Notes: a model not told the origin generated them from the sequence alone. A stretch of DNA of 41,119 nt from Candidatus Asbonarchaeum danakilense (GCA_034190465.1 JAXINV010000021.1:1-41119), one strand, 5' to 3'; positions 7,388 through 36,999 are shown, counted from the stretch's first letter. Translations and numbers: made by a program.

Positions 7388-9058
7388 ATGGCACAGCTAG
7401 GAGGACAACCGATTTTGGTAATGTCAGAAGACGCACAGCGTCAAACGGGCAAGGACGCCCAGGAGAATAACATCAACGCATGCAAATCAGTAGCTAACGC
7501 AGTCAGGACCACGCTCGGTCCCAAGGGGATGGACAAGATGATGGTCGACTCCATCGGCGACCTCGTCGTCACCAACGACGGCGTCACCATCCTCGACGAG
7601 ATGGATCTCGAGCATCCCGCGGCCAAGATGATGGTCGAGATCGCGCAGACACAGGACGAAGAGGTCGGCGACGGCACCACCACCGCCGTCGTCATCGCAG
7701 GCGAGCTGCTCAAAGAGGCAGAAGACCTGCTCGACCAGGACATCCACCCAACGGTCATCTCATCCGGCTACCGGCTCGCCAAGGAGCGGGCGCTCGAGGT
7801 GCTGGACGATGTCGCAGAGGATGTCGACTTCGACGACCGCGACAAGCTCGTCTCCGTCGCCAAGACAGCGATGACAGGCAAGTCGGCCGAGACGAATAAA
7901 GAATACCTCGCCGACCTGGCAGTCGACGCCGTCAGGCAGGTCGCCAGCAAGGACAGCGAACTCGACCGCGACCTGATCAAGATGGTCAAGAGCCAGGGCG
8001 GCTCCGTCGACGACACAGAGCTCGTCGAAGGCGTCATCATCGACAAGGAGAAGGTCCACCCGGACATGCCCGACGAGGCAGACGACGCCCGGATCGCACT
8101 GATCAACACCGCCGTCGAGGTCCAGGAGACCGAGACCTCTGCCGAGATCCAGATCAACGACCCGAACAAGCTCCAGGAGTTCGTCAACCAGGAGGAGGAA
8201 TCCCTCAAGGAGATGGTCGAACAGATCAAGGCATCCGGCGCCAACGTCGTCTTCTGCCAGAAAGGCATCGACGACATCGCACAGCACTACCTCGCGAAGA
8301 ACGGCATCATCGCCGTCCGGCGCGTCAAGCAGTCCGACATGGAGAAGCTGTCCAAGGCGACCGGCGCCAAGATCGTCAACAGCCTCCCCGATCTCAGCGA
8401 GGACGATCTCGGCACTGCCGGCCGTGTCAGGCAGCGTAACGTCTCCGGCGACAGCATGATGTTCATCGAGGACATCGACAGCGCCGAGTCTGTCAGCCTG
8501 CTCATCCGTGGCGGCACCGAGCACGTCGTCGACGAAGTCGAGCGAGCGTTCGAGGACGCACTCGGCTCCATCACAGCAGCGCTCCGCCACGGCAAGATCG
8601 TCGGCGGCGGTGGCGCGACCGAGGTCGAGGTCGCCAAAGAGCTCAAGGACTACGCCGACTCCGTCGGCGGCCGTGAGCAGCTGGCGATCACCGCGTTCGC
8701 CGAGGCCCTCGAGGTCATCCCGCGGACGCTGGCTGAGAACGCCGGCCTGGACCCGATCGACGTCCTTGTCGACCTGCGGACCAAGCACGAAGACGGCAAC
8801 ACCTGGTCCGGCATCGACGTCATGACCGGCAACTCCGAGGACCTGTTCAGCCAGCACGTCGTCGAGCCGCTGCAGACCAAGACGCAGGCACTCCAGTCCG
8901 CGTCCGAGTCCGCAGAGCTCATCCTGCGGATCGACGACGTCATCTCCGCCTCCGGCTTCGACGGCGAAGGCGGCGGTGACGAGGCAGGCGGTCCACCCGC
9001 CGGTGGCGCCCCAGGCGGCGGCATGGGCGGAATGGGCGGCATGGGGGGCATGATGTAA
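7388..9058 (+). CDS. ths: thermosome (group II chaperonin) subunit
   Basis: [25 protein letters not shown] and a GGM-repeat tail. Confidence 0.98.
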
Positions 9059-9194
9059 GGCATTAGCCTTACAAATGCCTTCCCTTCGAAGAAAATCCGC
9101 CAGGATTTTCGGGCATGGGCGGAATGATGTGATCATTCCGGCCTTCGAGAAGCGCGAGCTTCGAGCATGGGAGGCAGGATGTAGCCTCCGTACC
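9038..9194 (+). repeat. triplicated thermosome 3' end with fold-back copies and hairpins
   Basis: GGCATGGGGGGCATGATGTAA (9038-9058), GGCATGGGCGGAATGATGTGA (9112-9132), AGCATGGGAGGCAGGATGTAG (9164-9184). Hairpins at 9091-9110 and 9149-9162. Confidence 0.85.
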
Positions 9195-9443
9195 GGCCAT
9201 CACATGGCGGGGTCCTCCCCGCCACCTTTTCCCCTCTTTTTCTTCCCTCCAGTTCATCTTCCAGTGTGCATCGCTCAGCAGCCGTTCCGCAGCGACGGGA
9301 CCGCGGTCGATCAGGAAGCTCCCAGAACGAAACACCGCAAAGCGGCAGGAACCGGACGGGAAAGCACAGCACCGGTGGGTAAGTTATTTATAGAGGGCCA
9401 CCGTATTTGGTGACTGTAAAAGCCCTAGCTAGGTTGATTCATT

Positions 9444-9977
9444 ATGTCTGATGAAGTGGAGCTCCCCCATGACGAGGATTCTGAAGAATACGAAATCATC
9501 CCAATGGGGCCGGTGAGGAAATTGGAAAAAAGGATAGACGAACTCGAGCAGCAGAAGAGCGCTGGCGGCCCGCAGGGAGACTATGTCCGCGACATCCTGG
9601 ACATCATGAAGGCCAACCAGAAAATCGTCAACGACATGGTCGAATCCACCAGCCAGCTCCAGAACTCGATCGAGGACCTCACCCACAAGATGGACAGCGT
9701 CCTCGACAACATGAACGAATTCATGAACCTGCTGCAGGAAGCCTCCGAGGCCTCACTGGAGGAAGATGTCTCCACCGACATCAGCCAGAACCTCGTCCAG
9801 CCCCTCACCGACAGCATGCAGGACATCCGTGAGACCAACGAGAAGATGCTCGAAGGGCTTGGCAAGATCGACGAGAGCCTCAACAACCTGGACAAGCGTA
9901 TGAAGCGTATATACGCTTCCCAGCGCTCTGGTAGAGGGAGTAGCGGAGGCAACCGACAGCGCCAGGGAAGAGGTTGA
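9444..9977 (+). CDS. coiled-coil protein at the head of the pilus locus
   Basis: Heptad-rich helical sequence; TTATTTATA upstream; ends 7 nt before the first pilin. Confidence 0.75.
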   Translation: MSDEVELPHDEDSEEYEIIPMGPVRKLEKRIDELEQQKSAGGPQGDYVRDILDIMKANQKIVNDMVESTSQLQNSIEDLTHKMDSVLDNMNEFMNLLQEASEASLEEDVSTDISQNLVQPLTDSMQDIRETNEKMLEGLGKIDESLNNLDKRMKRIYASQRSGRGSSGGNRQRQGRG

Positions 9978-9984
9978 TACAGAC

Positions 9985-10509
9985 ATGGCAGTGAGCCATC
10001 GAAAAGCTATTACACCAGTTATCGCAGTCGTCCTCCTCCTCATGATGACAGTCGCAGCAGCCGGAGGAGCATACGCCTGGCTCACACAACTCCAAAACCA
10101 ATTCCAGCAGCGCACTCAGGAGAACATCGAACGTGGTATCGACATCGTTAGCCTGGACTGCTACAACGATGGCGGTACAGGCTACGTCGAGGTCTTCTTC
10201 AAGAACTCCGGCACCAAGGCGCTCGACCTCAACCCCATCGACATGAACATCAGGCTCGCCGCGACGAGCAGTATCAACTACAGCCTCACCCGGACAGGGC
10301 TCAAGCTCAGCGATATCGGTGGCCTGGGCAGAGGCATCACATTCATCGAGGGGAGTAACGACTTTGCGAGCCCCCGTGCCTCAGCGCCGTACAAGATCAA
10401 CACGTTCAGCAGGTTCAAGCTCGGCACGCGGTACAAGATCAACTTCATATTCACCGACGAAGACAGTACCACCAAGTCCGGCTCATGTCAGGCAGACCGC
10501 CGGACCTGA
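9985..10509 (+). CDS. archaeal type IV pilin
   Basis: Class III signal peptide RKA|ITPVIAVVLLLMMTVAAAG. Confidence 0.9.
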   Translation: MAVSHRKAITPVIAVVLLLMMTVAAAGGAYAWLTQLQNQFQQRTQENIERGIDIVSLDCYNDGGTGYVEVFFKNSGTKALDLNPIDMNIRLAATSSINYSLTRTGLKLSDIGGLGRGITFIEGSNDFASPRASAPYKINTFSRFKLGTRYKINFIFTDEDSTTKSGSCQADRRT

Positions 10510-10681
10510 ACAGCTATAGAAACATTTTAATGCCATCCCTCCCGATAACTATCCAAGGTCAATGGATCGAAAGGGAATCACACCAGTTATCGCAGTCGTC
10601 CTCCTCCTCATGATGACAGTCGCAGCAGCCGGAGGAGCATACGCCTGGCTCACACAACTCCAAAACCAATTCCAGCAGCGC
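10012..10681 (+). repeat. 102-bp identical direct repeat in two pilin genes (10012-10113 and 10580-10681)
   Basis: ACACCAGTTATCGCAGTC...CAATTCCAGCAGCGC is identical, including third codon positions. Confidence 0.9.
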
Positions 10682-11071
10682 GCTCAGGAAGACGTGCAGC
10701 GAGGGATAAGCCTGAACGACCTTACATGCTACAATAAAGGGGGACAGGCACATGTTGTCGCATTCTTCAAGAACTCCGGCACCACTGAACTCGACCTCAA
10801 CCCCGTCGACATGAACGCACGGTACGCCGCGACCGGTAACATCAACTACAGCCTCACAACGACAGGCATGAGCTTCACACAGGGCAGACTGAGTCAAGGG
10901 GTTGTGTTCAGGACAGGGAACAGCGACTTCTCCCAGCCGCGTTCATCCGCCGCCTACCGCATCGACCTGGATTCGCAGTTCGAAATCGGACGGCGGTACA
11001 AAATGGAGTTCGTCTTCACCGACGAAGACGGCACCACCAAGTCCCAGACCTGTCAGGCGCAGCAGCGGTGA
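10562..11071 (+). CDS. archaeal type IV pilin (paralog)
   Basis: RKG|ITPVIAVVLLLMMTVAAAG; paralogous to the previous gene. Confidence 0.9.
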   Translation: MDRKGITPVIAVVLLLMMTVAAAGGAYAWLTQLQNQFQQRAQEDVQRGISLNDLTCYNKGGQAHVVAFFKNSGTTELDLNPVDMNARYAATGNINYSLTTTGMSFTQGRLSQGVVFRTGNSDFSQPRSSAAYRIDLDSQFEIGRRYKMEFVFTDEDGTTKSQTCQAQQR

Positions 11072-11167
11072 CGTCAAGGTAGGACCGAGCATCTTCACAC
11101 GTCATACCGGCCGCTCCTGTCAAAACTTTTTATTCGGCGACCTCCATTGTGTAGACGTGGATTCATC

Positions 11168-11818
11168 ATGGTCACCCTGAACAAAGGACAGTCCCAGGTC
11201 GTCACCGCGGTCCTTCTCGGCGGGATCCTCATCGTCGGAATCTCCTCCGCCTACACCTGGGGCGTACCGCTCCTCCAGAAGAACAAAGATGTCAACAAAC
11301 TGCAGAACACCGTTTCAACGTTCAAAAAACTCGAACAGGAGATAGAATCCGTCGCACAGCGTGGCGGCACCGGGCAGATCAGGTTCAAGGTGGGCAGTGG
11401 CTTCCTCCGGGTGTCAGCCGAGAACAACACGATCATCTACACAGTCACCACCAACGCCGCCTACGTCGCCACCGGGGAATGGGTCCCGCTCAACGAGAAC
11501 GACCTGGCTGGCATCGCGGTCGCCGGACGGGGTGAAGGATACGGCATCCGGAACCAAGACAAGCCAGGCGTTCTCATAGCGAACGCCGATTACCAGGGCG
11601 ACAACTACCAGACCACCTTCAAGCTCGTCTTCCGCGAACTCCAGAGCCTCAGCTCCAACAAAGGCTACATCATCGACCTCGTCGGCAGCGGCAACCTGGA
11701 GGCTTCCGGTGGCACACACCAGATTATCGTCCAGCAAGGCGACGAAGTAATCGAACAGGGTGCATCAGCGACAAACGGCCCGCTCCAGAAGCAGCGCATC
11801 AAGATCAGGATCAACTAG
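11168..11818 (+). CDS. minor pilin-like protein
   Basis: KG|QSQVVTAVLLGGILIV class III signal. Confidence 0.8.
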   Translation: MVTLNKGQSQVVTAVLLGGILIVGISSAYTWGVPLLQKNKDVNKLQNTVSTFKKLEQEIESVAQRGGTGQIRFKVGSGFLRVSAENNTIIYTVTTNAAYVATGEWVPLNENDLAGIAVAGRGEGYGIRNQDKPGVLIANADYQGDNYQTTFKLVFRELQSLSSNKGYIIDLVGSGNLEASGGTHQIIVQQGDEVIEQGASATNGPLQKQRIKIRIN

Positions 11819-11822
11819 CGGG

Positions 11823-12248
11823 ATGAACTTTACAACCCGGAAAGGACAGTACGCCGTCGTCGAACAAGTCATCCTCTTCGCCCTCGGCGTCGCCATCCTC
11901 TCAGGGTTTCTCACCGCGTTCAACGGATTCAGCCGGGACGTGAAAAGCGACGCCATCCAGGAACAGTCGGCACTCATGGCCCAGGTCGTTGCATCGCACA
12001 CGGCACACCTGGTCAGCACCCATGCCAACGGAGAGCTCTCCTTCAGCATCCCCGACTCCCTCGCAGGGGAGAACTATATAATCAACTTCACAGACGGGGG
12101 GGTTGCAGTCATCGTCGGGGACACCAGCCACCTCTCCACCATCTACGGCATCACCGAAACATACCGGCTGAGAGGCAGCGTCTCAAGCGAGTACGAGACA
12201 GCGGTTATAAGTATCGAACAAGACACAATAAAGATAGGGAGTCCCTGA
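11823..12248 (+). CDS. minor pilin-like protein
   Basis: RKG|QYAVVEQVILFALG class III signal. Confidence 0.8.
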   Translation: MNFTTRKGQYAVVEQVILFALGVAILSGFLTAFNGFSRDVKSDAIQEQSALMAQVVASHTAHLVSTHANGELSFSIPDSLAGENYIINFTDGGVAVIVGDTSHLSTIYGITETYRLRGSVSSEYETAVISIEQDTIKIGSP

Positions 12249-14047
12249 TGGCCCTCGACTTCGCAAAACTTGCACGGCGACTGCGGAAAGCACGGGAAAA
12301 GAAAAGGCAAGAGAAGGAGGAAGAACTCCAGCGACAGTTCCCCGAAAAAATCGAGGTCGAGGGAACAGGCACCGTCCCGGCCCAGCAACAGGAACAGGAA
12401 GAAGAGGAGGAGAAAGACGAGGAAGCAGAACTGGTCGAAGGCGACGAAGAACGTATCAGCCTCAGGCCCAGCTTCAGCGAGGACGAGGCCACAAGCTGGA
12501 TGGAGGAGAGCGAGGAGGAAGAAGACCTCGAAGAGGACCAGGCCGAGGACGTCTCCATGCAGTACCCGTTGATCCCCTCCGCGCCCAGCCAGGACGAACG
12601 TGTCTTTGCCTGGGTCGACATCCAGTACCATTCCAACGAGGACGAACTCATCTACCGGCTGCACGAACCTGACCTCACACAGCGGATGGAGGAGGTCCTG
12701 GACGAGGTCGAGAACCAGCTCAAGGAACAGATCGACGTCGACTTCGGCCAGCTGAAACAGGAGGAGGCCAAGAACTACATGGAGGACCATGTTCAGGACA
12801 TCCTCGAAAGCCACAGCTTCGGCCTGTCAGAGGACGAAAAAGAGGTCATCCAGTACTATGCCTACCGTAACTTCGTCGGTCTCGGCAAGGTCGAGGCGTT
12901 GATGCGGGACAGCCAGATCGAGGACATCTCCTGCGACGGCGTCGGCATCCCGATCTACGTCTACCACCGCAACCCAAAAATCGGGTCCGTCAAGACCAAT
13001 GTTATCTTCGATGACGACGAACAACTCGACGCATTCGTCAGGAAGCTCGCACAGCGGTGTGGACGGTCCATCTCCATGGCCGAACCACTGCTCGACGGCT
13101 CACTGCCAGACGGTTCACGTGTCCAGGCCACGCTGGGCACCGACATCGCACGGAAGGGCACCAACTTCACCATCCGCCGGTTCACCGAGGAACCGCTCAC
13201 ACCCGTCCACCTCATGGACTACGGCACCCTTGACTCCCAGATGCTCGCCTACCTGTGGATGGCCGTCGAACACGGCAAATCCATCCTCATCGCCGGTGCC
13301 ACCGCCGCCGGTAAGACTACATTGCTCAACTCCATCTCACTGTTCATCCGGCCCGAGCTCAAGATCGTGTCCATCGAGGACACGCCCGAGCTGCGGCTCC
13401 CGCACCCGAACTGGGTTCCGGAGACTGCTCGTGAAGGTTTCGGGTTCGGTGAGGACCAGACCGGCAGCGTCAGCCTGGACGACCTGCTCAAGGAATCCCT
13501 GCGGCAGCGTCCCGATTACATCATCGTCGGCGAGGTCCGTGGCGAGGAGGCGTACATCCTCTTCCAGCAGATCGCCACCGGCCACCCTGGCATGTCCACC
13601 CTGCACGCCTCCAGCATGGAGAAGGTCATGGACCGTCTCACCACCAAGCCGATCGACCTCCCGCCGTCCCTGATCGAGAACCTGGACATCATCGTCTTCG
13701 CCAAACGGGCCAGGCGTCAGGGCAGCTACGTCAGGCGTGCGGACAGCATCTACGAGTTCGAAGGTTACAACAAAGAGAAGAACGAACCCATGGTCAACCA
13801 GCTGTTCAAATGGGATGCCAGCAGCGATGACTTCGATAATCCAAGCGACTCCTCCATCCTTGCAGAGATCGCCGAAGAACAGGGTATCGATATCCGGGAG
13901 GTACAGGAGGAGATGACCCGGCGGAAACAGATCCTGGAATGGATGCATGAACAGGACATCACTCATTACAAGGACGTCGGCCGTATCATCCAGACATACT
14001 ACCACTACCCCAACCAAATCATGGACCGGGTCGAGGCAGAGTACTAG
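12248..14047 (+). CDS. type IV pilus assembly ATPase (VirB11/TadA/FlaI family)
   Basis: IEDISCDG, Walker A GATAAGKTT, SIEDTPEL, LRQRPDYIIVGEVRG and TGH..STLHA. Confidence 0.95.
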   Translation: MALDFAKLARRLRKAREKKRQEKEEELQRQFPEKIEVEGTGTVPAQQQEQEEEEEKDEEAELVEGDEERISLRPSFSEDEATSWMEESEEEEDLEEDQAEDVSMQYPLIPSAPSQDERVFAWVDIQYHSNEDELIYRLHEPDLTQRMEEVLDEVENQLKEQIDVDFGQLKQEEAKNYMEDHVQDILESHSFGLSEDEKEVIQYYAYRNFVGLGKVEALMRDSQIEDISCDGVGIPIYVYHRNPKIGSVKTNVIFDDDEQLDAFVRKLAQRCGRSISMAEPLLDGSLPDGSRVQATLGTDIARKGTNFTIRRFTEEPLTPVHLMDYGTLDSQMLAYLWMAVEHGKSILIAGATAAGKTTLLNSISLFIRPELKIVSIEDTPELRLPHPNWVPETAREGFGFGEDQTGSVSLDDLLKESLRQRPDYIIVGEVRGEEAYILFQQIATGHPGMSTLHASSMEKVMDRLTTKPIDLPPSLIENLDIIVFAKRARRQGSYVRRADSIYEFEGYNKEKNEPMVNQLFKWDASSDDFDNPSDSSILAEIAEEQGIDIREVQEEMTRRKQILEWMHEQDITHYKDVGRIIQTYYHYPNQIMDRVEAEY

Positions 14048-14061
14048 GAGGGTTCCCCTAA

Positions 14062-14946
14062 ATGGCCACACAAAGCTGGTACGTCGAACAGGCAGATAGC
14101 TACTTCAGCAGGTACGCCCTCCTGATCAACGACTACTTCCAGGACATCAAAGAGGATCTGAAAAAGGCCGACATGTCGTTCACACTGACAGAGTACCTCA
14201 GCACTGCACTGATGTCCTCCACAATCGCGTTCATCTTCGTCACTCCTCTCATCTCCATCTTCGTCGGCCTGGCGCTCGGCTCCACCTCCGGCATCATCGC
14301 AGGATTGATCGCCGGTCTTTTCATCGGCATGTTCCTCGCCGTGGGCATCTTCATGGGGTTCTACGTCTACCCGTCCGTCAAGGTTTCAAAGCGGCGGGAC
14401 GACATCAACCACAACCTCCCCTTCGCCACCATGTACCTCTCCACCGTCGCAGGGTCCGGCACACCGCCGGCAGCGATGTTCAAGCTACTCGGCCAGTTCG
14501 ACGAATACGGCGAAGTGTCCAAGGAATCCCGGAAGATCGCCCGGGACGTCTACACGTTCGGCGCCGACCTCGACGAAGCATTGACCAACGCCGCCAAGCG
14601 GACCCCCTCTGAGAAGTTCAAAGAACTTCTCTGGGGACTCAATTCCGTAATAACGACCGGGGGCGACCTGAAAAGCTTCCTGCAGCAAAAGAGCGATGCC
14701 TACATGGACGACTACAGGCGTGAGCTGGACAAGTTCACCGACACCCTGTCCCTGATGGTCGAGATGTACATCACCGTCGTCATCGTCGGCTCCGTCTTCC
14801 TCATGATCATCTCGACGATCATGTCCGCGCTCGGTTCCAGCAGGACACTGGTGCTCGGCATCCAGATGGCGACCGTCGTCTTCCTTTTACCGATGGCGGC
14901 GATCGCGTTCATCCTTATCGTCAAGTCGACCTCCCCACTCGAGTGA
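14062..14946 (+). CDS. pilus membrane platform protein (TadC/GspF-like)
   Basis: I..NLPFA..Y......SG, YGEVSKE, A.RTPS..F; multiple TM helices. Confidence 0.9.
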   Translation: MATQSWYVEQADSYFSRYALLINDYFQDIKEDLKKADMSFTLTEYLSTALMSSTIAFIFVTPLISIFVGLALGSTSGIIAGLIAGLFIGMFLAVGIFMGFYVYPSVKVSKRRDDINHNLPFATMYLSTVAGSGTPPAAMFKLLGQFDEYGEVSKESRKIARDVYTFGADLDEALTNAAKRTPSEKFKELLWGLNSVITTGGDLKSFLQQKSDAYMDDYRRELDKFTDTLSLMVEMYITVVIVGSVFLMIISTIMSALGSSRTLVLGIQMATVVFLLPMAAIAFILIVKSTSPLE

Positions 14947-14989
14947 CCAACTGGTTTAAGCACAGCACGCACATACAAGAGGCAGAAAC

Positions 14990-15907
14990 ATGGGCTACCT
15001 CGACAACCTCACCAAACAGGAGAAAGTGGAATACGCCTCCTTCGGGTCAGGCGCCATCATCCTGCTTATCGCCATCATCACATTCATCAGCGGCACCAAA
15101 GGCATCGGCGGTGCACTGTTCCTCGCCGGACTCGGCGTCGCGTTCCTCCCCTACGGCATCTACTCCTACCTTAGAAACAAGAAGTACCAGGCCATGGAGC
15201 GGGAGTTCCCCGGTTTCCTCCGCAACCTCTCCGAATCCAGAAAATCAGGGATGTCACTGCCCAAGGCGTTCCAGAACGCAGCCAAGACCGACTACGGCCG
15301 CCTCAACGACGACGTCAGGAAGGCAGCCGACCAGCTGTCCTGGGGCATCCCGTTCCCCGAGGTCATGGAACGGTTCCAGACACGGATGGGCGGATCAGGC
15401 CTCATCAAGCGCTCGATCTCCATCATCATGCAGTCGTACGAAGCCGGTGGCGACATCGCCGAGACGATGGACTCCATCGCCCAGGACGCCTCCAAGATCA
15501 AAGAAGCGGAAAAGGAGCGGAAGGCGGTGCTCCAGCAGCAGGTGTTCATCATCTACGCCATCTACTTCCTGTTCGTCGGTATCCTGATCGCGCTGTACTA
15601 CATCCTCGTCCCGTTACTGGACATCAGCGGCGGCGGATTCATCGGCACACCGCCGAACTTCTGTCGGTCCGGTGCGGAGGCGATCTGCAGTCTGTGTCCT
15701 GTGCTCGGCCTCCATCCCGACCCGAACGCCAAGCTCTGCTACTACAAGTCGATCTTCCTCCTGATGCTGATTGTCGAGGGCGTTTTCAACGGGCTCGTCG
15801 CCGGTGAGATCGGTTCCGGCAAGGTCTCAGCCGGACTCAAACACGTCATGCTGATGGCGCCCGCCGGCTTCATCATCTACGTCGGCGTCCTCACCATCAT
15901 GGGGTGA
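14990..15907 (+). CDS. second pilus membrane platform protein (TadB/TadC-like)
   Basis: EREFPGFLRNL......SGMSL, DYG.L, SWGIPF, GLVAG..GSG...AGLKH. Confidence 0.9.
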   Translation: MGYLDNLTKQEKVEYASFGSGAIILLIAIITFISGTKGIGGALFLAGLGVAFLPYGIYSYLRNKKYQAMEREFPGFLRNLSESRKSGMSLPKAFQNAAKTDYGRLNDDVRKAADQLSWGIPFPEVMERFQTRMGGSGLIKRSISIIMQSYEAGGDIAETMDSIAQDASKIKEAEKERKAVLQQQVFIIYAIYFLFVGILIALYYILVPLLDISGGGFIGTPPNFCRSGAEAICSLCPVLGLHPDPNAKLCYYKSIFLLMLIVEGVFNGLVAGEIGSGKVSAGLKHVMLMAPAGFIIYVGVLTIMG

Positions 15908-15913
15908 TCACCG

Positions 15914-16738
15914 GTGAAGGGGCAGATCTCTATCGAGTACACCGCAGGAGCCCTGCTGTTCTTCTCCGCCATCCTCTTCGTCGTCTCGGGCGTCCTCGGC
16001 ACGCTACCCCGTTTCACCGACACCATCGACGAGAACAGCATCGAGACCGAGGCATGGACCCTCTCAACACTCCTCATCTCGACACAGGGACGCTGGGAGA
16101 GCGGCCCCCGGAGCGGCACACAGTGGCAGCAGCACACCGGCAACATCAGCCGGGTCGGGCTTCTCGGACAGGACGGTAGCCTGGAACGCGAAAAGATACG
16201 GGCCTTCGTCTCCCTGCGGTACGAACGCCTCAAGGTCCTGTTGAAGACAGGGAAGGACCTCAACATCGAGTTCACAGAATTCGTCGTGGCTGACACCTCG
16301 CAATCGTTCACCAAGCCCACCGCCACAGGCGACATCGGCACAGTACTCACACAGCCCGACAGCCAGGCGTACCAGGACGCCAACGCCACCGTACATTACG
16401 GCACCGTCACACTCAACGGTGATGAACGCCACTTCCTCGTCACAGCACATCAGGGCGTGTACGACACCATCTACATCAGCCAGGACTGGAACTTCACAGA
16501 CGCCATCCGGCTCGGTCCCAACGGCAACCGGGTCCTCAGCTTCAACGGCCGCCGGTACAGGATACAGACGTCAGAATCCGGGATCTTCCAGAGCAACGGC
16601 CAGACAGTCATCTTCAGCAGGCCGATGGGCCGTGTCGGGCGACGGACCCCGACGGCAGAACCCCAGATCATCAACGTCAGACGGTTCGCAAGCATGGACG
16701 GCAAACCCGTCAGGATCGACATGGAGATATGGGAATGA
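15914..16738 (+). CDS. pilin-like protein
   Basis: KG|QISIEY class III signal; GGTGA SD-like sequence before the GTG. Confidence 0.8.
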   Translation: MKGQISIEYTAGALLFFSAILFVVSGVLGTLPRFTDTIDENSIETEAWTLSTLLISTQGRWESGPRSGTQWQQHTGNISRVGLLGQDGSLEREKIRAFVSLRYERLKVLLKTGKDLNIEFTEFVVADTSQSFTKPTATGDIGTVLTQPDSQAYQDANATVHYGTVTLNGDERHFLVTAHQGVYDTIYISQDWNFTDAIRLGPNGNRVLSFNGRRYRIQTSESGIFQSNGQTVIFSRPMGRVGRRTPTAEPQIINVRRFASMDGKPVRIDMEIWE

Positions 16739-18885
16739 TGCGGAAAGGATACATGCACGCCATCGAAGGCGTCATCGCCAGCATGCTCGTCCTCCTCTAC
16801 CTCAGCACCATCATCTCCGCACCGCAGCCCACGGACTGGCGTGAGACCTCGCTCACCAAGCGGGCCGGTGACGTGCTCCGCACCTTGACCGAGAGCGGGA
16901 TCATGCAGCGCGCCCTGCTGGACAACGACCCCGGCGTCATCTCAGCCGTGACCGACGCGCTCGGCACCGGTATGGAGTACACGATGTACATCAGCGGGCT
17001 GCCGCGGCAGCAGCTGGACATCGGGATACTGATGAACGCCTCGGAGATCGTCCGGGTCGGCAGCCAGCCTGGTGGCGGTGGCAGCGGGCTTCCCGGGACC
17101 GAAGGCGACTACCGGTCCGGCACCGTCCTCGGCGTCGAGTTCATCCTCTCCGACAACGCCTCCAACGACATCACGCGGTACACGTCCGTCAACTTCGACT
17201 TCAACGACAACGGCCGGTACAACGAGACCATCGGCAGCATGGACGAAGGTCCGCACAACTTTGGTGACCTCATCGCCTGGTGCCCCGGCGGGACCTGCAG
17301 CGGGCAGCAATACCAGGTCGGCTACATCAACGAGACGCTCACCCTGTACAACCTGTCCAGCTACCGCTGGTTCAACCAGACGGTCAACGATATCCGTGTC
17401 AGCCGGTTCGACATCACCTCGACCCTCACCGCGACAGAGGTATTCACTGCAATCCATCGGCCGTTCAGCTCGTTCAGCCGCAGCGGCGGCTTCTACGAGA
17501 CCACGGCCCAGGTCAAGGACTTCCAGGTCGGAATCCGGGTCGGGACCGACAACGAGACGCTGTACATCAACGAGTCAGGCGGGTTCGAAGGTCCGTACAG
17601 TCAGGGCGACGAGATCGAGATGCTCGGCCAGTTCTTCGAGCTCACCAGCGTCATGCCGGTCAACGCCACACCGACAGGCCGCATCGATCCCGGCATCCTG
17701 TTCACGACCAACGCTCCTTCCCTCCTCGATACGTACAGGGACGCGCTGGAGGACTACCTGACCAACGGCAACACCCTCCTTGAGATGGCCGACTTCACCG
17801 GCTACGACACAGCGCAGTTCGACGGAAGCTTCCACGACCGTGTCGGGTTCGACTGGATCAGCTACCCGCTCATCCGTACCGGTCCCTCCTACAACACGTT
17901 CTTCGACGGCCAGGCGGGCACCGCGTCCTCCATCGCCAAGAGCTACTTCCGCGCCGCCACAATCGACGTGCCACAGGAAAGATACGTGGTCCAAACCGGT
18001 ACAGGCCCCGACTACGCCGTGACCAACGCCTCGATCCGGGGTACGGAGTACATCGTCAACGCGTCGCTGGACGCCGACACCGTCACGTTCAAGCGCGGCG
18101 GGTTCAGCGCGACCTACACCGCTGGCCAGCGCGTCGAGCTCGAAGGCAACCTGTTCCAAGTCATGGACACCTACCCGCTCCGTATGCGGACCTCTGACGC
18201 CTACCAGTTCGCCTCCATGCATCCCGGAAGGATCGTCGGCGGGCAGCCCGTGCTCCATGCCCCTGACTGGTCATGGAACGTCTCTGCTGCCAGCACCAAC
18301 GTCACAGGGCTCAGTACGAACGTCGATTTCGAGGGATGGCCGCAGACTGACTGCAGCCCCGCGCACCGCGGCAGGTTCTTCACCCTTGAAGGCACGACCT
18401 ACGCGGTCACCACGACCAACTTCCAACCCTGCGAACGGCAGTTCGAATACGTCAACTTCGACTTCAACCAGAACGGCCAAGTCGACGACAACAGCACCGT
18501 CACCGGTGAGGGCTACAGCGCCGAGGGCATCTTCCAGGAGGGAGAGATCGTCCAGATCGACGACCGGCAGTACCGGATCAGCATCGGCCGTGACGGTACC
18601 TGGGTCTACCTGAAGCGGGTCGCACCGCCGACCGTCCCGACAGCGATGTGGATCGAGGACGCGTACAACGGCAACGGCGACGTCTTCCTCACCGGCAGGA
18701 CGGACCTCGGCATCGACGGCGAGGCTTTCATCAAGGCCGTGATGGCGCGCGCAGCCATGAAACGCTACCGCTTCTCCAAGCCCAAGGTCATCGGCTCGCC
18801 CTCAAAAGGTGTCAGCTACACCAGCGACATCGAGGGAGCGGTCTACACCCCGTTCCAGGTCGAGAGCCTGTGGTGGTTCCAGTGA
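16735..18885 (+). CDS. large pilin-like / adhesin protein
   Basis: RKG|YMHAIEGVIASMLVLLYL; ATGA overlap; beta-rich with many NxS/T sequons. Confidence 0.8.
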   Translation: MMRKGYMHAIEGVIASMLVLLYLSTIISAPQPTDWRETSLTKRAGDVLRTLTESGIMQRALLDNDPGVISAVTDALGTGMEYTMYISGLPRQQLDIGILMNASEIVRVGSQPGGGGSGLPGTEGDYRSGTVLGVEFILSDNASNDITRYTSVNFDFNDNGRYNETIGSMDEGPHNFGDLIAWCPGGTCSGQQYQVGYINETLTLYNLSSYRWFNQTVNDIRVSRFDITSTLTATEVFTAIHRPFSSFSRSGGFYETTAQVKDFQVGIRVGTDNETLYINESGGFEGPYSQGDEIEMLGQFFELTSVMPVNATPTGRIDPGILFTTNAPSLLDTYRDALEDYLTNGNTLLEMADFTGYDTAQFDGSFHDRVGFDWISYPLIRTGPSYNTFFDGQAGTASSIAKSYFRAATIDVPQERYVVQTGTGPDYAVTNASIRGTEYIVNASLDADTVTFKRGGFSATYTAGQRVELEGNLFQVMDTYPLRMRTSDAYQFASMHPGRIVGGQPVLHAPDWSWNVSAASTNVTGLSTNVDFEGWPQTDCSPAHRGRFFTLEGTTYAVTTTNFQPCERQFEYVNFDFNQNGQVDDNSTVTGEGYSAEGIFQEGEIVQIDDRQYRISIGRDGTWVYLKRVAPPTVPTAMWIEDAYNGNGDVFLTGRTDLGIDGEAFIKAVMARAAMKRYRFSKPKVIGSPSKGVSYTSDIEGAVYTPFQVESLWWFQ

Positions 18886-28203: not shown

Positions 28204-28255
28204 CAGCAGATTGGGCCGACCCAGATTCTTAAAGCTGGCACCCGCCCCTCCATAC

Positions 28256-28540
28256 ATGGCACAGGAAGTCAGGGCATCGCACATCCTCGTCGACAACGAG
28301 ACCCATGCGAAACAGATCAAGGCCAAGCTGGACAAGGGTGAGGCCTCGTTCGAGGAGCTCGCCAAGAAGAAGAGCGAAGGACCGTCCAGCAAGGACGGCG
28401 GCGACCTCGGGTTTTTCGGCCGGGGTAAGATGGCCAAGCCGTTCGAACGCAAGGCCTTCGACATGGACGTCGGCGAGATCAGCGAGCCCGTACAGACACA
28501 GTTCGGATGGCACATCATCAAGAAAACCGATGAGCGCTAG
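28256..28540 (+). CDS. parvulin-type peptidyl-prolyl isomerase
   Basis: RASHILV, FEELAK..S, GGDLG.F..G.M...[10 protein letters not shown]. Confidence 0.95.
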
Positions 28541-28690
28541 TCATCGGTTTTCTGGTGAAGCCGAAGATCTCCGATCTTCAATCATCAAAAAGACGGATGA
28601 ACGATAGTCATCCGTCTTTTCTGCATGATGCTGAAGACCTTCAAGGTCTTCAAATCAAAAAGACGGACAACCGATAGCCTCCGTCGTTCC
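28514..28690 (+). repeat. triplicated parvulin 3' end with fold-back copies and hairpins
   Basis: IIKKTDER* (28514-28540), recoded IIKKTDER* (28581-28607), IKKTDNR* (28654-28677). Hairpins at 28563-28579 and 28633-28651. Confidence 0.9.
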
Positions 28691-28923
28691 TACATGCTGG
28701 CCACTCCTTCTGCACAGCGGCCTGGCAACAGCGGAAAGTTTATAAATACTGATCCCGATTTGATGTAGTCCGCCCCTCAGGACACGGGGCGAGGATGGAC
28801 GGACAGCTCACAGGGCTTATCCGGACATCCCGATCTTCTGCATGGCCTCAACGCCATCTGACAGATACGACGCTCACCTCCTCAGTCAGGCGTCACGTTA
28901 TCCTTCACAGGAGGGTTTTGCAC

Positions 28924-30387: not shown

Positions 30388-31170
30388 TCACGTGGAGTAG
30401 TCCGCGCCGAACTGGTCCAGGTTGGACTGGCTCTCCCGGAACTGGTCGTAGTCCGAGATCACGTCCTCCATCTCGACCTCGACGAACTCCAGGTCGCGTT
30501 CCGCCAGGTAGTCCTGCACGCTGTCTGACGCCTTCGGCGCGACCAGGATGCCGCGCAGCTCACGGCCCGGGAACTCGTCCTCGATCTCGTCCATGTATCG
30601 GTTCAGCTGGAGCACCGAGTTGTGGTCCGGGTTGCGCTTCACCTCGATGACCACCAGCTTGTCGTCCGTGTCCCGCGCAAAGACGTCGATGAACCCGGCC
30701 GGCGTGTCCTTCTCCCGTTCCACCACCGTCAGCCCGTCCTCCACGATGTCCGGCTCCTCCTCGATCGCCTCGTGGATATCGACCTCGTGGCCCCTGACCT
30801 GCAGGTCGCTCCGGTCCACCATCTGCGTGACATAGATCATCTCCAGTTCCTCAAACCGGATCGTCACCGTCTCCTGCGGGTCGTGGCGGCGGGAGTCCAA
30901 GACCAGCTCATCGCCGTCAATCCTCACGTCGAACGAGTCCGTCTCCGGCTGCCAGTTCTTCGGCTGGTACTGTTCCGGGCCGTGGACCAGCAGCGCGTTG
31001 TCCTGCTTCACGATGACAAGCCGCTCACCACGGTCCAGCTTTGACTTGGCCCTGCCCTGGTAGTTGACCGAGCACAGTCCTGTGACCTGGAGCACGTACG
31101 GCCGTGCGATGTACTGCTCCACGAGGTCGCGGGCCTGTTCCAGCGACGGGCCCTGGACGAGTTCCTGCAT
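30388..31170 (-). CDS. nucS: endonuclease NucS/EndoMS
   Basis: C.V.Y.GRA.S.L..GER, P.NWQP, G.IDV...D......IEVKR, QL.RY, RGILVAP. Confidence 0.95.
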   Translation of the reverse strand: MQELVQGPSLEQARDLVEQYIARPYVLQVTGLCSVNYQGRAKSKLDRGERLVIVKQDNALLVHGPEQYQPKNWQPETDSFDVRIDGDELVLDSRRHDPQETVTIRFEELEMIYVTQMVDRSDLQVRGHEVDIHEAIEEEPDIVEDGLTVVEREKDTPAGFIDVFARDTDDKLVVIEVKRNPDHNSVLQLNRYMDEIEDEFPGRELRGILVAPKASDSVQDYLAERDLEFVEVEMEDVISDYDQFRESQSNLDQFGADYST

Positions 31171-31230
31171 GGCCGCTGCTGGGGTTCGAACAGTCTTAAG
31201 GGTTGCGGCAGGTGGGAGAAAGGAAAAAGT

Positions 31231-31379
31231 GAGAGGCAGCGGGCAGCAGGCGGAGTGGGTATGGTATCGTCCTGCTGCCCGGGTTCGGAGCGGTCCTGGC
31301 TTCCCCCGGTGCGGCGGTGCTGCTGTGGGACAGGGCAGCACGACCGCGGCTGGCCGGACGGCTGTCCTCCTAGCCTCTC
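31231..31379 (-). ncRNA. candidate ~150-nt structured RNA
   Basis: Closing stem GAGAGGC/GCCTCTC, 11-bp CGGGCAGCAGG/CCTGCTGCCCG hairpin and GCGG..GTGCTGC/GCAGCAC..CCGC arm; followed by a T-rich tract. Confidence 0.6.
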
Positions 31380-33183: not shown

Positions 33184-33235
33184 CCGCGTGACAACCACCC
33201 GCATTTAAATCACCGCGACCCGGTTAGTTGGATGT

Positions 33236-34429: not shown

Positions 34430-34485
34430 CCCGGACCGCTTTTATAAATGTTGGCGGATATGAGGAGGTACGGAGGTGTTCAATA

Positions 34486-34680: not shown

Positions 34681-34773
34681 TTCAACGTTCTTTTTCACGG
34701 CGCTTCCGGACCCGTGGCCCCGTCACCGGTCCGGGAGGCACGCCGCTTTATCTTCAGGCATCGCACTGATCTC

Positions 34774-35544: not shown

Positions 35545-36512
35545 GTCGTATCACCGTCCAGTACAGTGTTCTCGTCGAAGGTGCTGCCCGTGACGTGGAG
35601 GAAGACGTCCTCCAGGCTGGGCTTCCGCATGTTGATGGATTCGATGTCCGCGCCGGCCGACCCGATGACATCAATCAGGCTCGTGATGTGCCGCTCGGCA
35701 TCTGTCGCCGTGATCGAGACAATAGCATCGTCGTTTTCCGCCTTTTCGACCCATTCGCATCCGTCGAGATCGTCGATCAGGCCGTCGACGTACTGGTCGA
35801 GCTCCACCCGTATGATGTCGCCACCGATCTGTTGTTTCAAATTTGCAGGTGTATCCAGTGCCCGTATCCTGCCCTCCTGCAGGATCGCCGTCCGGTCGCA
35901 CAGCGTGTCGGCCTCCTCCATATAGTGGGTGGTCAGGATGATCGTCATGCCCTCGTCCCGGTTCAGGTGCTCGATGTAATCCCAGATACGGCGTCGGGTC
36001 TCCGCGTCCAGCCCCAGGGTGGGCTCATCCAGGAACAGGATTTCCGGTCGGTGCAGCAGGCCGCGGGCCAACTCCAGACGCCGTTTCATGCCGCCAGAGT
36101 AGTCCTCGACCTTCTTGTCCGCGTCTTCCTGCAGGTCGACGAGTTCCAGCATCTCCCGGATCCGTTCCTCCTTGTCTTCCAGGTCGTACATGTCGGCGTG
36201 GAACTCCATGTTGTCCCGCCCTGTCAGCCAGTCATCCAGCGCGGCCTCCTGGAACACCATGCCGATGCTGTCACGCACCCCGCCCGGTTCTTCCTGGATA
36301 TCGAAGCCGTTCACAGTTGCGGAGCCCTGCGTCGGCGCCAGCAGCGTCGCCATCATGTTGACCGTCGTCGTCTTGCCGGCACCGTTCGGGCCCAGGATGC
36401 CGAAGATCTCGCCCTGCCTGACCGTGAACGAGATCGTGTCGACCGCCGGATCGCTGCCGTAGAACTTCGTCAGGCCGTCGACCTGGATCGCGTCACCGCC
36501 GGTCCCGGACAT
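35541..36512 (-). CDS. ABC transporter ATP-binding protein (DrrA-like)
   Basis: GPNGAGKTT, YSGGMKRR, LFLDEPT, TTHYMEEA. Confidence 0.95.
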   Translation of the reverse strand: MSGTGGDAIQVDGLTKFYGSDPAVDTISFTVRQGEIFGILGPNGAGKTTTVNMMATLLAPTQGSATVNGFDIQEEPGGVRDSIGMVFQEAALDDWLTGRDNMEFHADMYDLEDKEERIREMLELVDLQEDADKKVEDYSGGMKRRLELARGLLHRPEILFLDEPTLGLDAETRRRIWDYIEHLNRDEGMTIILTTHYMEEADTLCDRTAILQEGRIRALDTPANLKQQIGGDIIRVELDQYVDGLIDDLDGCEWVEKAENDDAIVSITATDAERHITSLIDVIGSAGADIESINMRKPSLEDVFLHVTGSTFDENTVLDGDTT

Positions 36513-36652
36513 GTACAGTTCACCACCGCTGCAGGCTTTTAACCGTTTACCTCCACTTGACGACAGGATACTACCCACGGCTTCACGGCGAGAAAACCGA
36601 CTGGCAGGGTAAGCATCTCCATTGGAGATGTAGCACCGCCCTTTCTTCAAAA

Positions 36653-36883
36653 TGGCAGGGCCCGGATTTGAACTCGAAAATCAAAGATTTTCTTGGGGTT
36701 CAAATCCACAAGCCTTTCAGTGGGTTCGCTTGCGAACCCGCTCTTGCGTGTCGACCGAGCGTAACCAGTCGGATGGCAGGGCCCGGATTTGAACCGGTCG
36801 CAGATCACAGACCATGCTCAAGGTTCAAAACACGGGCTTGTCAGCGAACGAACGTGAGATGGCAGGGCCCGGATTTGAACCGG
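36653..36883 (-). repeat. two extra copies of the tRNA-Pro 3' end, each preceded by a fold-back copy
   Basis: On the plus strand TGGCAGGGCCCGGATTTGAAC starts at 36653, 36774 and 36860; GAAAATCAAAGATTTTC hairpin at 36676-36692. Confidence 0.9.
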
Positions 36884-36932
36884 GGTCCACAGCGCCCGAG
36901 GCTGCGATGATAGTCCACTACACCACCCCGCC
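36860..36932 (-). tRNA. tRNA-Pro(CGG)
   Basis: GGCGGGGTGGTGTAGTGGACTATCATCGCAGCCTCGGGCGCTGTGGACCCCGGTTCAAATCCGGGCCCTGCCA. Confidence 0.9.
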
Positions 36933-36977
36933 ACATGACACTCAACACGCGGTGATGATGGCCGAACACAGCGGTTC

Positions 36978-36999
36978 GTCCAGTACACCACCCCGCCAC
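36978..36999 (-). repeat. copy of the tRNA-Pro 5' end
   Basis: GTCCAGTACACCACCCCGCCAC versus GTCCACTACACCACCCCGCCAC at 36913-36934 (1 mismatch). Confidence 0.85.

What the first reader, a model, noticed from the sequence alone, without database searches (positions are those of the whole stretch)
9038..36999. Shared gene-end fold-back cassette at three unrelated genes: a candidate base-pairing-guided mini mobile element
Seen: the thermosome (9038-9194), parvulin (28514-28690) and tRNA-Pro (36653-36883) genes each end in [gene end]-[imperfect reverse complement of that end]-[short hairpin]-[new copy of gene end], iterated twice. Periods are 74/52, ~67/70 and 86/121 bp. Five of the six cap hairpins have the form GAA...TTC (GAAAATCCGCCAGGATTTTC, GAAGCGCGAGCTTC, GAAGATCTCCGATCTTC, GAAGACCTTCAAGGTCTTC, GAAAATCTTTGATTTTC); the rest of each unit is specific to its target. 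Established: site-specific integrative elements restore the gene end they disrupt, and HUH enzymes (IS200/IS605 TnpA, RAYT) recognise small hairpins; IS200/IS605 TnpA selects targets by base pairing. Inference: these are tiny non-autonomous elements that insert near the end of conserved genes, bring a replacement end and push the old end downstream. The antisense arm could act as a built-in guide and the hairpin as the enzyme handle. No integrase or transposase is in the window, so it would act in trans. I do not know a named family with this architecture.
Basis: partly seen in the sequence, partly recalled or inferred. Interest (0 to 1): 0.9.

Follow-up and report, generated by a model that had tools for sequence, protein, structure and literature searches.

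The report
Gene-end-replacing hairpin mini-cassettes
Behind two protein genes and a tRNA gene of a tiny salt-loving symbiotic archaeon sit stacked 50-120-base hairpin cassettes, each of which supplied a fresh copy of the gene's last 20-27 bases and pushed the old end downstream; they look like an undescribed miniature mobile DNA for which no enzyme is known.

Summary
Thermosome, parvulin and tRNA-Pro each end in three copies of their last 20-27 nt, with an antisense arm and (5 of 6) a GAA...TTC hairpin between copies. It is not an assembly artefact: the same design follows the thermosome gene in 7 of 12 and the parvulin gene in 5 of 15 related genomes, some of them closed. Unit number varies (a ~93% identical strain has none at the thermosome).

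Displaced copies still read as gene ends. At parvulin, 23 of 26 codon differences are synonymous and all 6 copies keep their stop. In one genome the displaced copy matches the cassette-free congener, so the working end is the import. The cassette's non-coding part is more alike across families than the gene.

Best reading (0.55): a non-autonomous, horizontally spreading mini-cassette that replaces gene ends and is lost again through its direct repeats.

Seamless RNA splicing is also excluded.

The same hairpins sit in tRNA introns of this lineage. This scan has noted tRNA-end cassettes of this kind before on other DNA; the protein-gene cases and the import evidence are new here.

The parts
7388..9058 (+). 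Thermosome gene; its last 21 nt (9038-9058, GMGGMM*) are the functional, gene-proximal end copy F
   Evidence: Pfam Cpn60_TCP1 E 4.9e-190; sequence
9044..9084 (+). Hairpin 1 of thermosome unit 0: gene end paired with its antisense arm, stop codon inside the stem
   Evidence: fold of 9038-9111, z -5.07
9091..9110 (+). Cap hairpin GAAAATCC-GCCA-GGATTTTC, identical to a hairpin inside tRNA introns of related genomes
9112..9132 (+). Displaced thermosome end copy 1 (GMGGMM*, TGA stop) followed by its own antisense arm (9132-9143). It corresponds to the functional end of congener G001
9149..9162 (+). Cap hairpin GAAGC-GCGA-GCTTC; the orthologous cap is present in G001
9165..9184 (+). Displaced thermosome end copy 2 (MGGRM*, TAG), the oldest copy, followed by the ancestral 3' flank. 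A ~93% identical strain joins its stop directly to this flank
28211..28540 (+). Parvulin (PpiC-type) gene; last 27 nt (28514-28540, IIKKTDER*) are the functional end copy
   Evidence: Pfam Rotamase E 9.9e-26
28521..28553 (+). Hairpin 1 of parvulin unit 0 (13/13 bp, stop codon in the loop)
28563..28579 (+). Cap hairpin GAAGATC-TCC-GATCTTC. It is identical to the cap behind tRNA-Val (C9:25421) and to the parvulin cassette cap of G014 (another family)
28581..28630 (+). Displaced parvulin end copy 1 (IIKKTDER*, 5 synonymous changes) with its own compensated antisense arm (13/13 bp)
28633..28651 (+). Cap hairpin GAAGACCTT-C-AAGGTCTTC
28654..28699 (+). Displaced parvulin end copy 2 (IKKTDNR*) with a decaying antisense arm
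36858..36933 (-). tRNA-Pro(CGG), the functional gene
   Evidence: ARAGORN, Rfam tRNA 51.3 bits
36772..36843 (-). tRNA-Pro cassette 1: antisense arm (36822-36843), spacer without a GAA...TTC cap, displaced 3'-end copy (36772-36797, 26/26 identical to the gene)
36651..36707 (-). tRNA-Pro cassette 2: antisense arm (36693-36707), cap GAAAATC-TTT-GATTTTC (36676-36692), displaced 3'-end copy (36651-36676). Together they form one long fold-back
   Evidence: z -3.39
36963..36999 (-). 5'-side cassette of tRNA-Pro: displaced 5'-end copy (36978-36999, 21/22) and hairpin CGAAC-CGCTGT-GTTCG (36963-36978), the mirror image of the 3' design
74..90 (-). GAAGACC...GGTCTTC cap inside the predicted intron of tRNA-Ala(CGC) at the window's start (same module, intron context)

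Best explanation
Each unit is a non-autonomous mini-cassette of about 45-100 nt. It consists of a replacement copy of the target's last 20-27 nt (with stop codon, or tRNA discriminator), an antisense arm that pairs with that copy, a short linker, and a small GAA...TTC cap hairpin. It enters at the inner edge of the conserved terminal segment. The imported end becomes the working end and the native end is left just behind the cap. New units enter next to the gene, so arrays grow outward. The direct repeats let a unit be lost again, which restores an intact gene; this makes insertion harmless and keeps the displaced ends coding-competent. Cassette lineages are target-specific and move between lineages. 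Shown: the anatomy, the polarity (newest unit proximal), the gain/loss polymorphism, the coding-type divergence of the copies, and the cross-family homology of the cassette. Inferred: the entry step. I think the likeliest route is recombination or break repair templated by a cassette-bearing allele, with gene body or terminal segment as left homology and the displaced copy annealing to the recipient's own end on the right. Whether the hairpins serve an unknown enzyme, or merely provoke breaks and slippage, is open.
For: Anatomy and folding.

Recurrence at the same genes. Thermosome: cassettes in 7 of 12 loci, none in 4, one ambiguous. Parvulin: displaced copies in 5 of 15 genomes whose gene end was found.

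Polarity. G001's functional thermosome end and cap correspond to this genome's second unit.

Polymorphism. A contig of a ~93% identical strain from another study joins 9057 to 9193 with 10 other letters, so it has no cassette. The same strain replaces 28611-28717 by 36 letters.

Coding-type divergence. Parvulin: 23 synonymous against 3 non-synonymous codon differences, and 6 of 6 copies keep an in-register stop. With two thermosome pairs the count is 25:6, against a null of 13% synonymous; 0 of 5000 simulations reached it. Thermosome: 10:11 over 9 pairs, null 11%, 0 of 5000.

Import. The displaced copy in G014 shares a 17-nt identical run with the cassette-free congener G028, while G014's functional end differs from G028 at 8 of 27 nt.

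Horizontal or strongly constrained module. G000 and G014 share a 17/17 identical cap. By my count on the alignment, G000 and G029 share 33 of 39 aligned non-coding positions, while their gene bodies are 68-69% identical.

Stand-alone units. No distant copies of tRNA ends were found in this genome.
Against: No enzyme is identified. This genome has one tyrosine recombinase, on a 3.2-kb contig beside an Orc1/Cdc6 fragment, and no hit for Y1, TnpB, RT, IS110, serine recombinase or Cas1; the MAG is 92% complete.

A free double-stranded circle of 50-120 bp is physically implausible, so the transfer form is unknown.

The import evidence is thin. The G014/G028 comparison rests on 27 nt in genes only about 80% identical (21/27 against 19/27).

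In G011 the two copies are identical over 24 nt (27 nt by my reading). That fits an in-place duplication equally well.

Recombination between families whose genes are ~69% identical is not expected from ordinary homologous recombination.

Presence/absence does not by itself tell gain from loss.

Caps are not universal: 10 of 20 displaced tRNA 3' copies have one, and G018's parvulin cassette has none.
Confidence: 0.55

Rival explanations
1. The cassettes are scars or cis-mobilisable remnants of ordinary integrase-driven integrative elements (viruses, plasmids). Such elements recombine with gene 3' ends, carry a replacement end in attP, and accrete in tandem; the interior was later deleted, or the mini-unit is moved in trans by an integrase.
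For: Direct repeats of gene ends with the imported copy functional are what attL/attR look like. The targets (tRNA T-loop to 3' end, tRNA 5' end, conserved protein C-termini) are classic att choices (background read in PMC3293823, Discussion). Tyrosine recombinases occur in 19 of 31 genomes of the order. The tRNA-Pro array sits at a synteny break relative to G001.
Against: No kilobase-sized element flanked by tRNA-end copies in this genome. Dozens of different targets would need dozens of element lineages, and none was seen intact. Independent deletions would not leave the same 45-100-nt design with a cap abutting the old end. Cassette junctions were absent from 2.9 million viral contigs. Several cassette-bearing genomes gave no PF00589 hit (G015, G025; both incomplete). 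Spacings of 52-74 bp are short for tyrosine-recombinase synapsis (recalled, not tested).
Confidence: 0.15
2. One reading: single-strand, hairpin-recognising HUH (IS200/IS605 TnpA or RAYT-like) transposition, with the cap as the enzyme handle and the antisense arm as a base-pairing guide.
For: The units fold strongly as single strands. The caps keep GAA/TTC closing pairs while the inner stem co-varies (G-C to A-T between the G000/G014 and G029/G011 parvulin caps). This suggests recognition of a structure with a conserved foot.
Against: PF01797 gave 0 hits in this genome and hits in 2 of 31 relatives, both of one genus; none in the closed cassette-bearing genomes G014, G018 and G026. No TnpB here. 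IS200/IS605 elements do not duplicate or replace 20-27 nt of target (recalled). The arm pairs with the imported end next to it, not with a cleavage site.
Confidence: 0.08
3. In-place origin: replication slippage or template switching at a gene-end hairpin duplicates the end. The structures persist because they serve the host RNA (3'-end protection, termination, processing).
For: Cassette-poor relatives already have a stop-codon-spanning hairpin (G001 parvulin). G011's two copies are identical. The cassette is conserved across families, which could reflect function.
Against: Neutral copies should not differ almost only at synonymous sites. The identical 17-20-nt caps at unrelated loci and in tRNA introns cannot arise locally. 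Cassettes are absent from many relatives with the same genes. Caps are not T-run terminators by sequence.
Confidence: 0.12
4. The cassettes are bulge-helix-bulge introns, removed from the RNA by the tRNA splicing endonuclease so that the downstream copy becomes the real end.
For: The same cap hairpins lie in real tRNA introns here and in relatives. Selection on both copies would explain their coding integrity.
Against: The motif finder placed the splice sites of 5 of 7 annotated tRNA introns correctly. It found 0 motifs whose two cuts lie at equivalent places of successive copies. Motif counts (28, 14, 64) were below shuffled means (44, 17.9, 72). The first copy is complete in every case, so no splicing is needed.
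Confidence: 0.03
5. Assembly artefact of a metagenome bin.
For: The bin has 81 contigs and contains scaffolding artefacts elsewhere: 100-N gaps flanked by identical 60-mers.
Against: The same architecture occurs in independent genomes, including single-contig ones (G014, G018, G026). The copies differ from each other in ordered, codon-respecting ways.
Confidence: 0.01

Closest known systems
attL/attR duplications of integrative elements at tRNA and protein gene ends (SSV-type, pNOB8-type archaeal integrases; tandem accretion; cis-mobilisable elements)
   Same: The insertion restores the gene with an element-borne end and leaves the native end as a direct repeat. The target choices are the same (tRNA T-loop to 3' end, 5' end). 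Units stack in arrays.
   Different: The units are 45-100 nt with no gene, no arm-type sites and no integrase nearby. A hairpin pair takes the place of an element body. No full-size relative was found. Background from PMC3293823 (abstract and Discussion read).
tRNA-linked repeats (TLRs) of Escherichia coli
   Same: Short units behind tRNA or rRNA genes, each ending in 18-19 bp identical to the 3' end of the upstream gene, one to five per locus, origin unexplained (passages of PMC8144298 read).
   Different: TLRs are bacterial, are not reported at protein genes, have no GAA...TTC cap, and carry no evidence of imported ends.
Mitochondrial 'gene hybrids' made by mobile endonuclease elements (Glomus; Allomyces atp6)
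   Same: A mobile insertion brings a foreign C-terminal coding piece that becomes functional, and the native end is displaced downstream. PMC3787672 passages mention gene hybrids through HGT; the Allomyces details are recalled.
   Different: Those insertions carry an endonuclease ORF. Here a 14-20-nt hairpin stands in that place.
Double-hairpin and palindromic mini-elements (Allomyces DHEs, REP/REPIN, PATEs, MITEs)
   Same: Small, ORF-less, hairpin-forming and dispersed. DHE mobility is cited in PMC3787672.
   Different: None of these rebuilds the end of its target gene or is target-specific. REPIN and PATE need RAYT or TnpA, which were not found here.
Transposed tRNA introns of archaea (Thermoproteales)
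   Same: The same short structured modules recur in introns of different tRNAs; how they arrive is an open question (abstract of bioRxiv 10.64898/2026.10.13.758758; PMC4090602 seen only as a search listing).
   Different: Here the module also lies outside genes, as gene-end cassettes that are not spliceable.
Folded single-strand attachment sites (CTX phage attP with XerCD; integron attC)
   Same: The fold-back of antisense arm, cap and end copy would mimic the double-stranded target. The order of parts after integration matches what a single-strand circle would give.
   Different: This is purely a resemblance recalled from memory. No Xer-type enzyme is tied to the cassettes and no single-strand form has been shown.

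Membership tests
Integrase-driven integrative element (att duplication) | Direct repeat of the target end flanking the insert, with the gene restored | tested here: met
Integrase-driven integrative element (att duplication) | Element body encoding, or lying next to, a tyrosine or serine recombinase | tested here: not met
   Inserts are 45-100 nt. No recombinase among 41 window ORFs. One PF00589 hit in the genome, on another contig. No PF00239 hit.
Integrase-driven integrative element (att duplication) | Full-length relatives at the same att site | tested here: not met
   No distant tRNA-end copies in G000. Junction patterns absent from viral contigs. Relatives were not scanned exhaustively.
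IS200/IS605 PATE or REP/RAYT element | HUH Y1 transposase in the genome | tested here: not met
   PF01797: 0 hits in G000; 2 of 31 relatives
IS200/IS605 PATE or REP/RAYT element | Subterminal hairpins, insertion next to a 4-5-nt target without duplication | tested here: not met
   20-27 nt of target are repeated; no shared short target motif at the junctions
Archaeal bulge-helix-bulge intron | BHB motif whose two cuts remove the insert seamlessly | tested here: not met
   0 repeat-consistent motifs; positive controls 5 of 7
MITE (DDE transposon derivative) | Terminal inverted repeats and a short target-site duplication of fixed length | tested here: not met
   The repeats are 11-27 nt, vary in length and differ in sequence between copies. 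The inverted arms are target-derived.
CRISPR array | Identical repeats alternating with unrelated spacers; cas genes | tested here: not met
   Caps differ within an array and the 'spacers' are gene-end copies. No Cas1.
tRNA-linked repeats (E. coli type) | Unit behind a stable-RNA gene ending in about 18-19 nt of that gene's 3' end | tested here: met
   tRNA-Pro and 12 or so other tRNAs. A likeness of design only; homology was not tested, and protein-gene cases fall outside the definition.

The most novel reading that the evidence does not exclude
These are members of a new class of ORF-less mobile element in Nanohaloarchaeota (and perhaps other DPANN archaea and their haloarchaeal hosts). The element is a double-hairpin cassette that homes to the conserved last 20-27 nt of essential genes by mimicking them, is moved by host repair or replication enzymes or by an unrecognised hairpin-binding protein, and spreads between lineages. 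When the same hairpin modules land inside a tRNA body they survive only where the splicing endonuclease can remove them, so this family would be the long-sought source of new archaeal tRNA introns.
Probability: 0.3. Interest if true: 0.9.

Novelty: new variant of a known kind. Interest (0 to 1): 0.75.

Why it matters
Three reasons.

(1) It would be the smallest known DNA insertion that keeps its essential target working by bringing a replacement end. This is the logic of integrative elements and of mitochondrial endonuclease-borne gene hybrids, but without any gene of its own and, in most genomes examined, without a recognisable transposase.

(2) The displaced ends are dated molecular fossils. 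They record horizontal exchange between nanohaloarchaeal lineages at single-gene resolution, in organisms thought to be genetically isolated symbionts.

(3) The same cap hairpins build the tRNA introns of this lineage. How archaeal tRNA introns arrive is stated to be open in a 2026 census (abstract). These cassettes give a concrete, polymorphic sequence family with which that question can be tested.

Practical note: gene callers will misplace gene ends and tRNA fragments at such loci.

Tried and rejected
- Seamless BHB splicing: rejected.
- Long ARAGORN 'introns' of 276-2037 nt as possible homes of an intron-encoded enzyme: the five that I opened (276-776 nt) are coding-region false positives; the 2014- and 2037-nt ones I set aside unopened.
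- Large elements flanked by tRNA-end copies in G000: none.
- Rfam: nothing but tRNAs in the window. Only spurious mir-278-like hairpin hits on the haloarchaeal loci.
- Viral contigs: the thermosome cap gave one unrelated AT-rich hit. Three cassette-junction patterns gave 0 hits.
- Metagenome contigs: one chance match, not a parvulin gene.
- Genome collection scan with the cap: 83 loci, of which 61 are bacterial and probably ordinary hairpins. A perfect 8-bp stem is far commoner than a random 20-mer, so I draw nothing from them.
- TnpB beside the haloarchaeal cap-bearing element: not evident, but contig numbering is uncertain.
- RNA evidence: no RNA holder listed for this stretch, so expression, 3' ends and processing could not be examined.
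- K-turn reading of 'GA-cap-GA': the flanks do not give the 3-nt bulge geometry (by eye); dropped.
- rfcS start-copying cassettes reported by the scan elsewhere: none upstream of rfcS in this window.
- The integrase contig C45 carries no cap hairpin.
- Literature searches found no description of these cassettes. One search was rejected for a badly formed term and was not repeated.

Full report
**What is there**

The window is contig C11 of a 1.2-Mb, 81-contig, 61% G+C genome bin. The scan's earlier notes call it a nanohaloarchaeon.

- The thermosome gene (7388-9058; Cpn60_TCP1, E 4.9e-190) ends GMGGMM*. It is followed by two further copies of that end at +74 and +126 nt.
- The parvulin gene (28211-28540; Rotamase) ends IIKKTDER*, with copies at +67 and +137 nt.
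- tRNA-Pro(CGG) (minus strand, 36858-36933) has two further copies of its T-loop-to-discriminator segment, 86 and 207 nt downstream. It also has a displaced copy of its first 22 nt, 65 nt upstream.

Every copy has a reverse-complement arm of its own. Five of the six spacers hold a small perfect hairpin that opens GAA and closes TTC. As single strands the four protein-gene units fold into two adjacent hairpins with z-scores of -5.0 to -8.8. The distal tRNA unit folds into one long fold-back that encloses the cap (z -3.4), and the cap-less tRNA unit is weak (z -1.8).

**More than chance, and not an artefact**

Genome-wide I found 185 oriented perfect GAA...TTC hairpins with stems of 6 bp or more. 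In 19 of them the 18 nt behind the hairpin recur (14 or more of 18) within the 160 nt before it, whereas 161 score 12 or less.

The 19 are mostly at tRNA 3' ends, with three at tRNA 5' ends in mirror image, plus the thermosome and parvulin units.

Starting instead from tRNA genes, 38 tRNAs have 20 nearby displaced 3'-end copies (one of them an N-gap artefact) and 9 displaced 5'-end copies (one of them also an N-gap duplicate). Ten of the 20 are directly preceded by a GAA...TTC hairpin. Four more 5' cases have GAAC...GTTC with one extra closing pair.

Among 5617 ORF ends, 7 have a 19/24 or better copy downstream, against 0 of 5190 controls. The only real protein genes among the hits are parvulin and, at 18/24 (a score that 5 controls also reach), the thermosome. 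Both lie in this window.

The design recurs in independent genomes, among them single-contig ones. An assembly artefact is therefore excluded.

**Comparison with relatives**

Thermosome, 12 loci:
- Cassettes with a cap and a displaced end follow the stop codon in 7 (G000, G001, G003, G015, G025, G026, G029).
- Four have none (G002, G009, G012, G019).
- One (G017) has a degenerate look-alike.
- In the congener G001 the functional end, its antisense arm and the cap GAAGCGC(A)AGCTTC correspond to unit 2 of this genome. The gene-proximal unit here is therefore the extra one.

Strain variation: a contig from another study, about 93% identical, runs from the stop codon (9057) to 9193 with only 10 other letters, so it has no cassette. 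At parvulin the same strain replaces 28611-28717 by 36 letters, so it lacks at least the distal unit.

Parvulin: displaced ends occur in 5 of the 15 genomes whose gene end I could find (G000 twice, G011, G014, G018, G029). Four of the five carry a cap.

**The copies are, or recently were, real gene ends**

At parvulin, the six displaced copies differ from the functional end by 23 synonymous and 3 non-synonymous codon changes. These include AGA/CGA and CGG/AGA arginine pairs. All six keep a stop codon in register.

With two thermosome pairs the count is 25:6. Random substitution gives 13% synonymous, and 0 of 5000 simulations reached the observed share.

At the thermosome, nine candidate pairs (12 or more of 18 identical) give 10:11 against a null of 11% (0 of 5000). 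Two of the nine (G012, G002) have no cap and no frame, and I regard them as chance matches. Without them the count is 10:4, with the stop kept in 6 of 7.

Neutral decay of a local duplicate cannot give this pattern. The two copies diverged under selection for the peptide, which means in different lineages, or with the displaced copy repeatedly returned to service.

**Which copy is foreign**

In G014 the displaced parvulin copy shares an unbroken 17-nt identity with the end of the cassette-free congener G028, in genes that are about 80% identical overall. G014's functional end differs from G028 at 8 of 27 positions.

The antisense arm matches the functional copy, not the displaced one.

The cassette itself is homologous across families. 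G000 (family f1) and G014 (f3) share the first 14 nt of the replacement end, the arm, and an identical 17-nt cap. G000 and G029 share 33 of 39 aligned non-coding positions (my count on the alignment), while the gene bodies are 68-69% identical.

Between these homologues the cap changes by a compensated pair: GAAGATC/GATCTTC against GAAAATC/GATTTTC.

These points favour a target-specific cassette lineage that moves between lineages and brings its own end. The evidence is thin in places: the segments are short, and in G011 the two copies are identical, which says nothing about origin.

**Link to tRNA introns**

The thermosome cap GAAAATCC-G(C/T)CA-GGATTTTC occurs 96-100% identical in other genera. 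There it lies inside tRNA introns (Leu, Pro/Gln, Glu, Thr, Arg).

In this genome it sits in the introns of tRNA-Leu(TAG) and tRNA-Arg(TCG). Other introns carry sister caps.

The parvulin cap is identical to the cap behind tRNA-Val.

The cap is thus a module shared between introns and gene-end cassettes.

The gene-end cassettes are not themselves spliceable. A bulge-helix-bulge finder placed 5 of 7 annotated introns correctly. It found no motif whose cuts fall at equivalent places of successive copies, and no excess over shuffles.

**Enzymes**

The window's 41 scanned ORFs hold no recombinase or transposase.

The genome gave one tyrosine-recombinase hit, on a 3.2-kb contig beside an Orc1/Cdc6 fragment and without caps. 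It gave none for Y1 transposase, TnpB, reverse transcriptase, IS110, serine recombinase or Cas1. The bin is 92% complete, so absence is not proven.

Across 31 genomes of the order, Y1 transposase occurs in 2 (one genus) and tyrosine recombinases in 19. The HUH model therefore lacks its enzyme. An integrase acting in trans cannot be excluded.

No distant copies of tRNA ends exist in this genome. Cassette junctions are absent from the viral collection. No full-size parent element is in sight.

**Reading**

I commit to a non-autonomous, horizontally spreading, reversible gene-end-replacement cassette (0.55).

The entry step is inferred. The simplest route uses a cassette-bearing allele as template. 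The broken or invading gene end copies the replacement end, arm and cap. The displaced copy on the template then anneals to the recipient's own end.

This gives exactly the observed order and polarity, and it needs only 20-27 nt of conserved homology on the right.

Loss through the direct repeats restores the gene. That explains both the polymorphism and the preserved coding capacity of the displaced ends.

What the hairpins do is open. They may be a handle for an unknown protein, or a provoker of breaks and slippage.

Rivals: integrase scars or trans-mobilised mini-elements (0.15), in-place duplication kept for an RNA function (0.12), HUH-type transposition (0.08), RNA splicing (0.03), artefact (0.01).

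**Known relatives of the idea**

- att duplications of integrative elements (PMC3293823, abstract and Discussion read).
- E. coli tRNA-linked repeats, whose units end in 18-19 bp of the upstream gene's 3' end and have no known origin (PMC8144298, passages read).
- Mitochondrial gene hybrids created by mobile endonucleases, and double-hairpin elements (PMC3787672, passages read; the Allomyces details are recalled).
- Transposed archaeal tRNA introns (PMC4090602, search listing only).

My searches found no paper describing these cassettes.

This scan has noted tRNA-end and gene-start cassettes of this kind before on other DNA and on another contig of this genome. New here are the protein-gene 3' ends, the codon-level evidence, the import evidence, the cross-family homology of one cassette lineage, and the negative tests for splicing and for HUH enzymes.

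Noticed in passing
window 36653-36999 and G000 contig C5:47153-47499: The whole tRNA-Pro(CGG) gene with its 5' hairpin and both 3' cassettes is present twice in the bin at 99% identity over 347 nt, with different flanks on both sides. Each locus keeps its own slightly different displaced 5' fragment, and C5 has a fourth, degenerate 3' copy. The window copy lies at a synteny break relative to congener G001.
   Followed up: partly
loci L057, L059, L065, L095, L100, L120, L121, L122 (Halobacteria MAGs): The same 20-nt cap tips a long hairpin at the 3' side of a conserved ~150-nt multi-copy element in haloarchaea, the host lineage. The element is a structured 52-nt block, 12-16 variable nt, then the hairpin. 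It has no Rfam family and no evident TnpB neighbour.
   Followed up: partly
G000 contigs C1:99550, C4:47400, C5:49190, C6:8586, C17:24194: 100-N gaps flanked by identical 60-nt stretches (spacing 155). These are scaffolding joins of overlapping contig ends, not biology. They create false 'repeats' near tRNA genes.
   Followed up: yes
G000 contig C45:600-1973: The only tyrosine recombinase found in the bin (457 aa, with a C-terminal Cys-rich tail). It lies on a 3.2-kb contig beside an Orc1/Cdc6-like fragment, so it is possibly a provirus or plasmid piece, or foreign DNA.
   Followed up: partly
locus L037 (G018), behind the parvulin stop: A cap-less version of the cassette: functional end, a 12-nt antisense arm, 2 nt, then a displaced end TKKEDER* with four synonymous changes.
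   Followed up: no
window 6754-6936 (-): ARAGORN calls an intron-bearing 'tRNA-Tyr(ATA)' with an 89-nt intron. The anticodon call looks doubtful (perhaps a CAU-type tRNA or a miscall), and the Rfam gathering search did not report it.
   Followed up: no
window 30388-31341 (-) and 37495-38397 (-): NucS/EndoMS endonuclease and an RmuC-family protein lie in the window; RmuC is next to the tRNA-Pro array. RmuC is linked (recalled) to recombination at short inverted repeats. This is probably coincidence.
   Followed up: no
window 9444-21218 (+): Type IV pilus-like locus (PilB-type ATPase, two T2SSF platform genes, a LamG-domain giant protein) directly downstream of the thermosome array. It has already been described in the scan's earlier notes.
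   Followed up: no
window 28522-28552 and 9122-9138: The gene-end hairpins of parvulin unit 0 and thermosome unit 1 themselves open GAA and close TTC, like the caps. Whether this is coincidence or part of what makes these ends targets is open.
   Followed up: no
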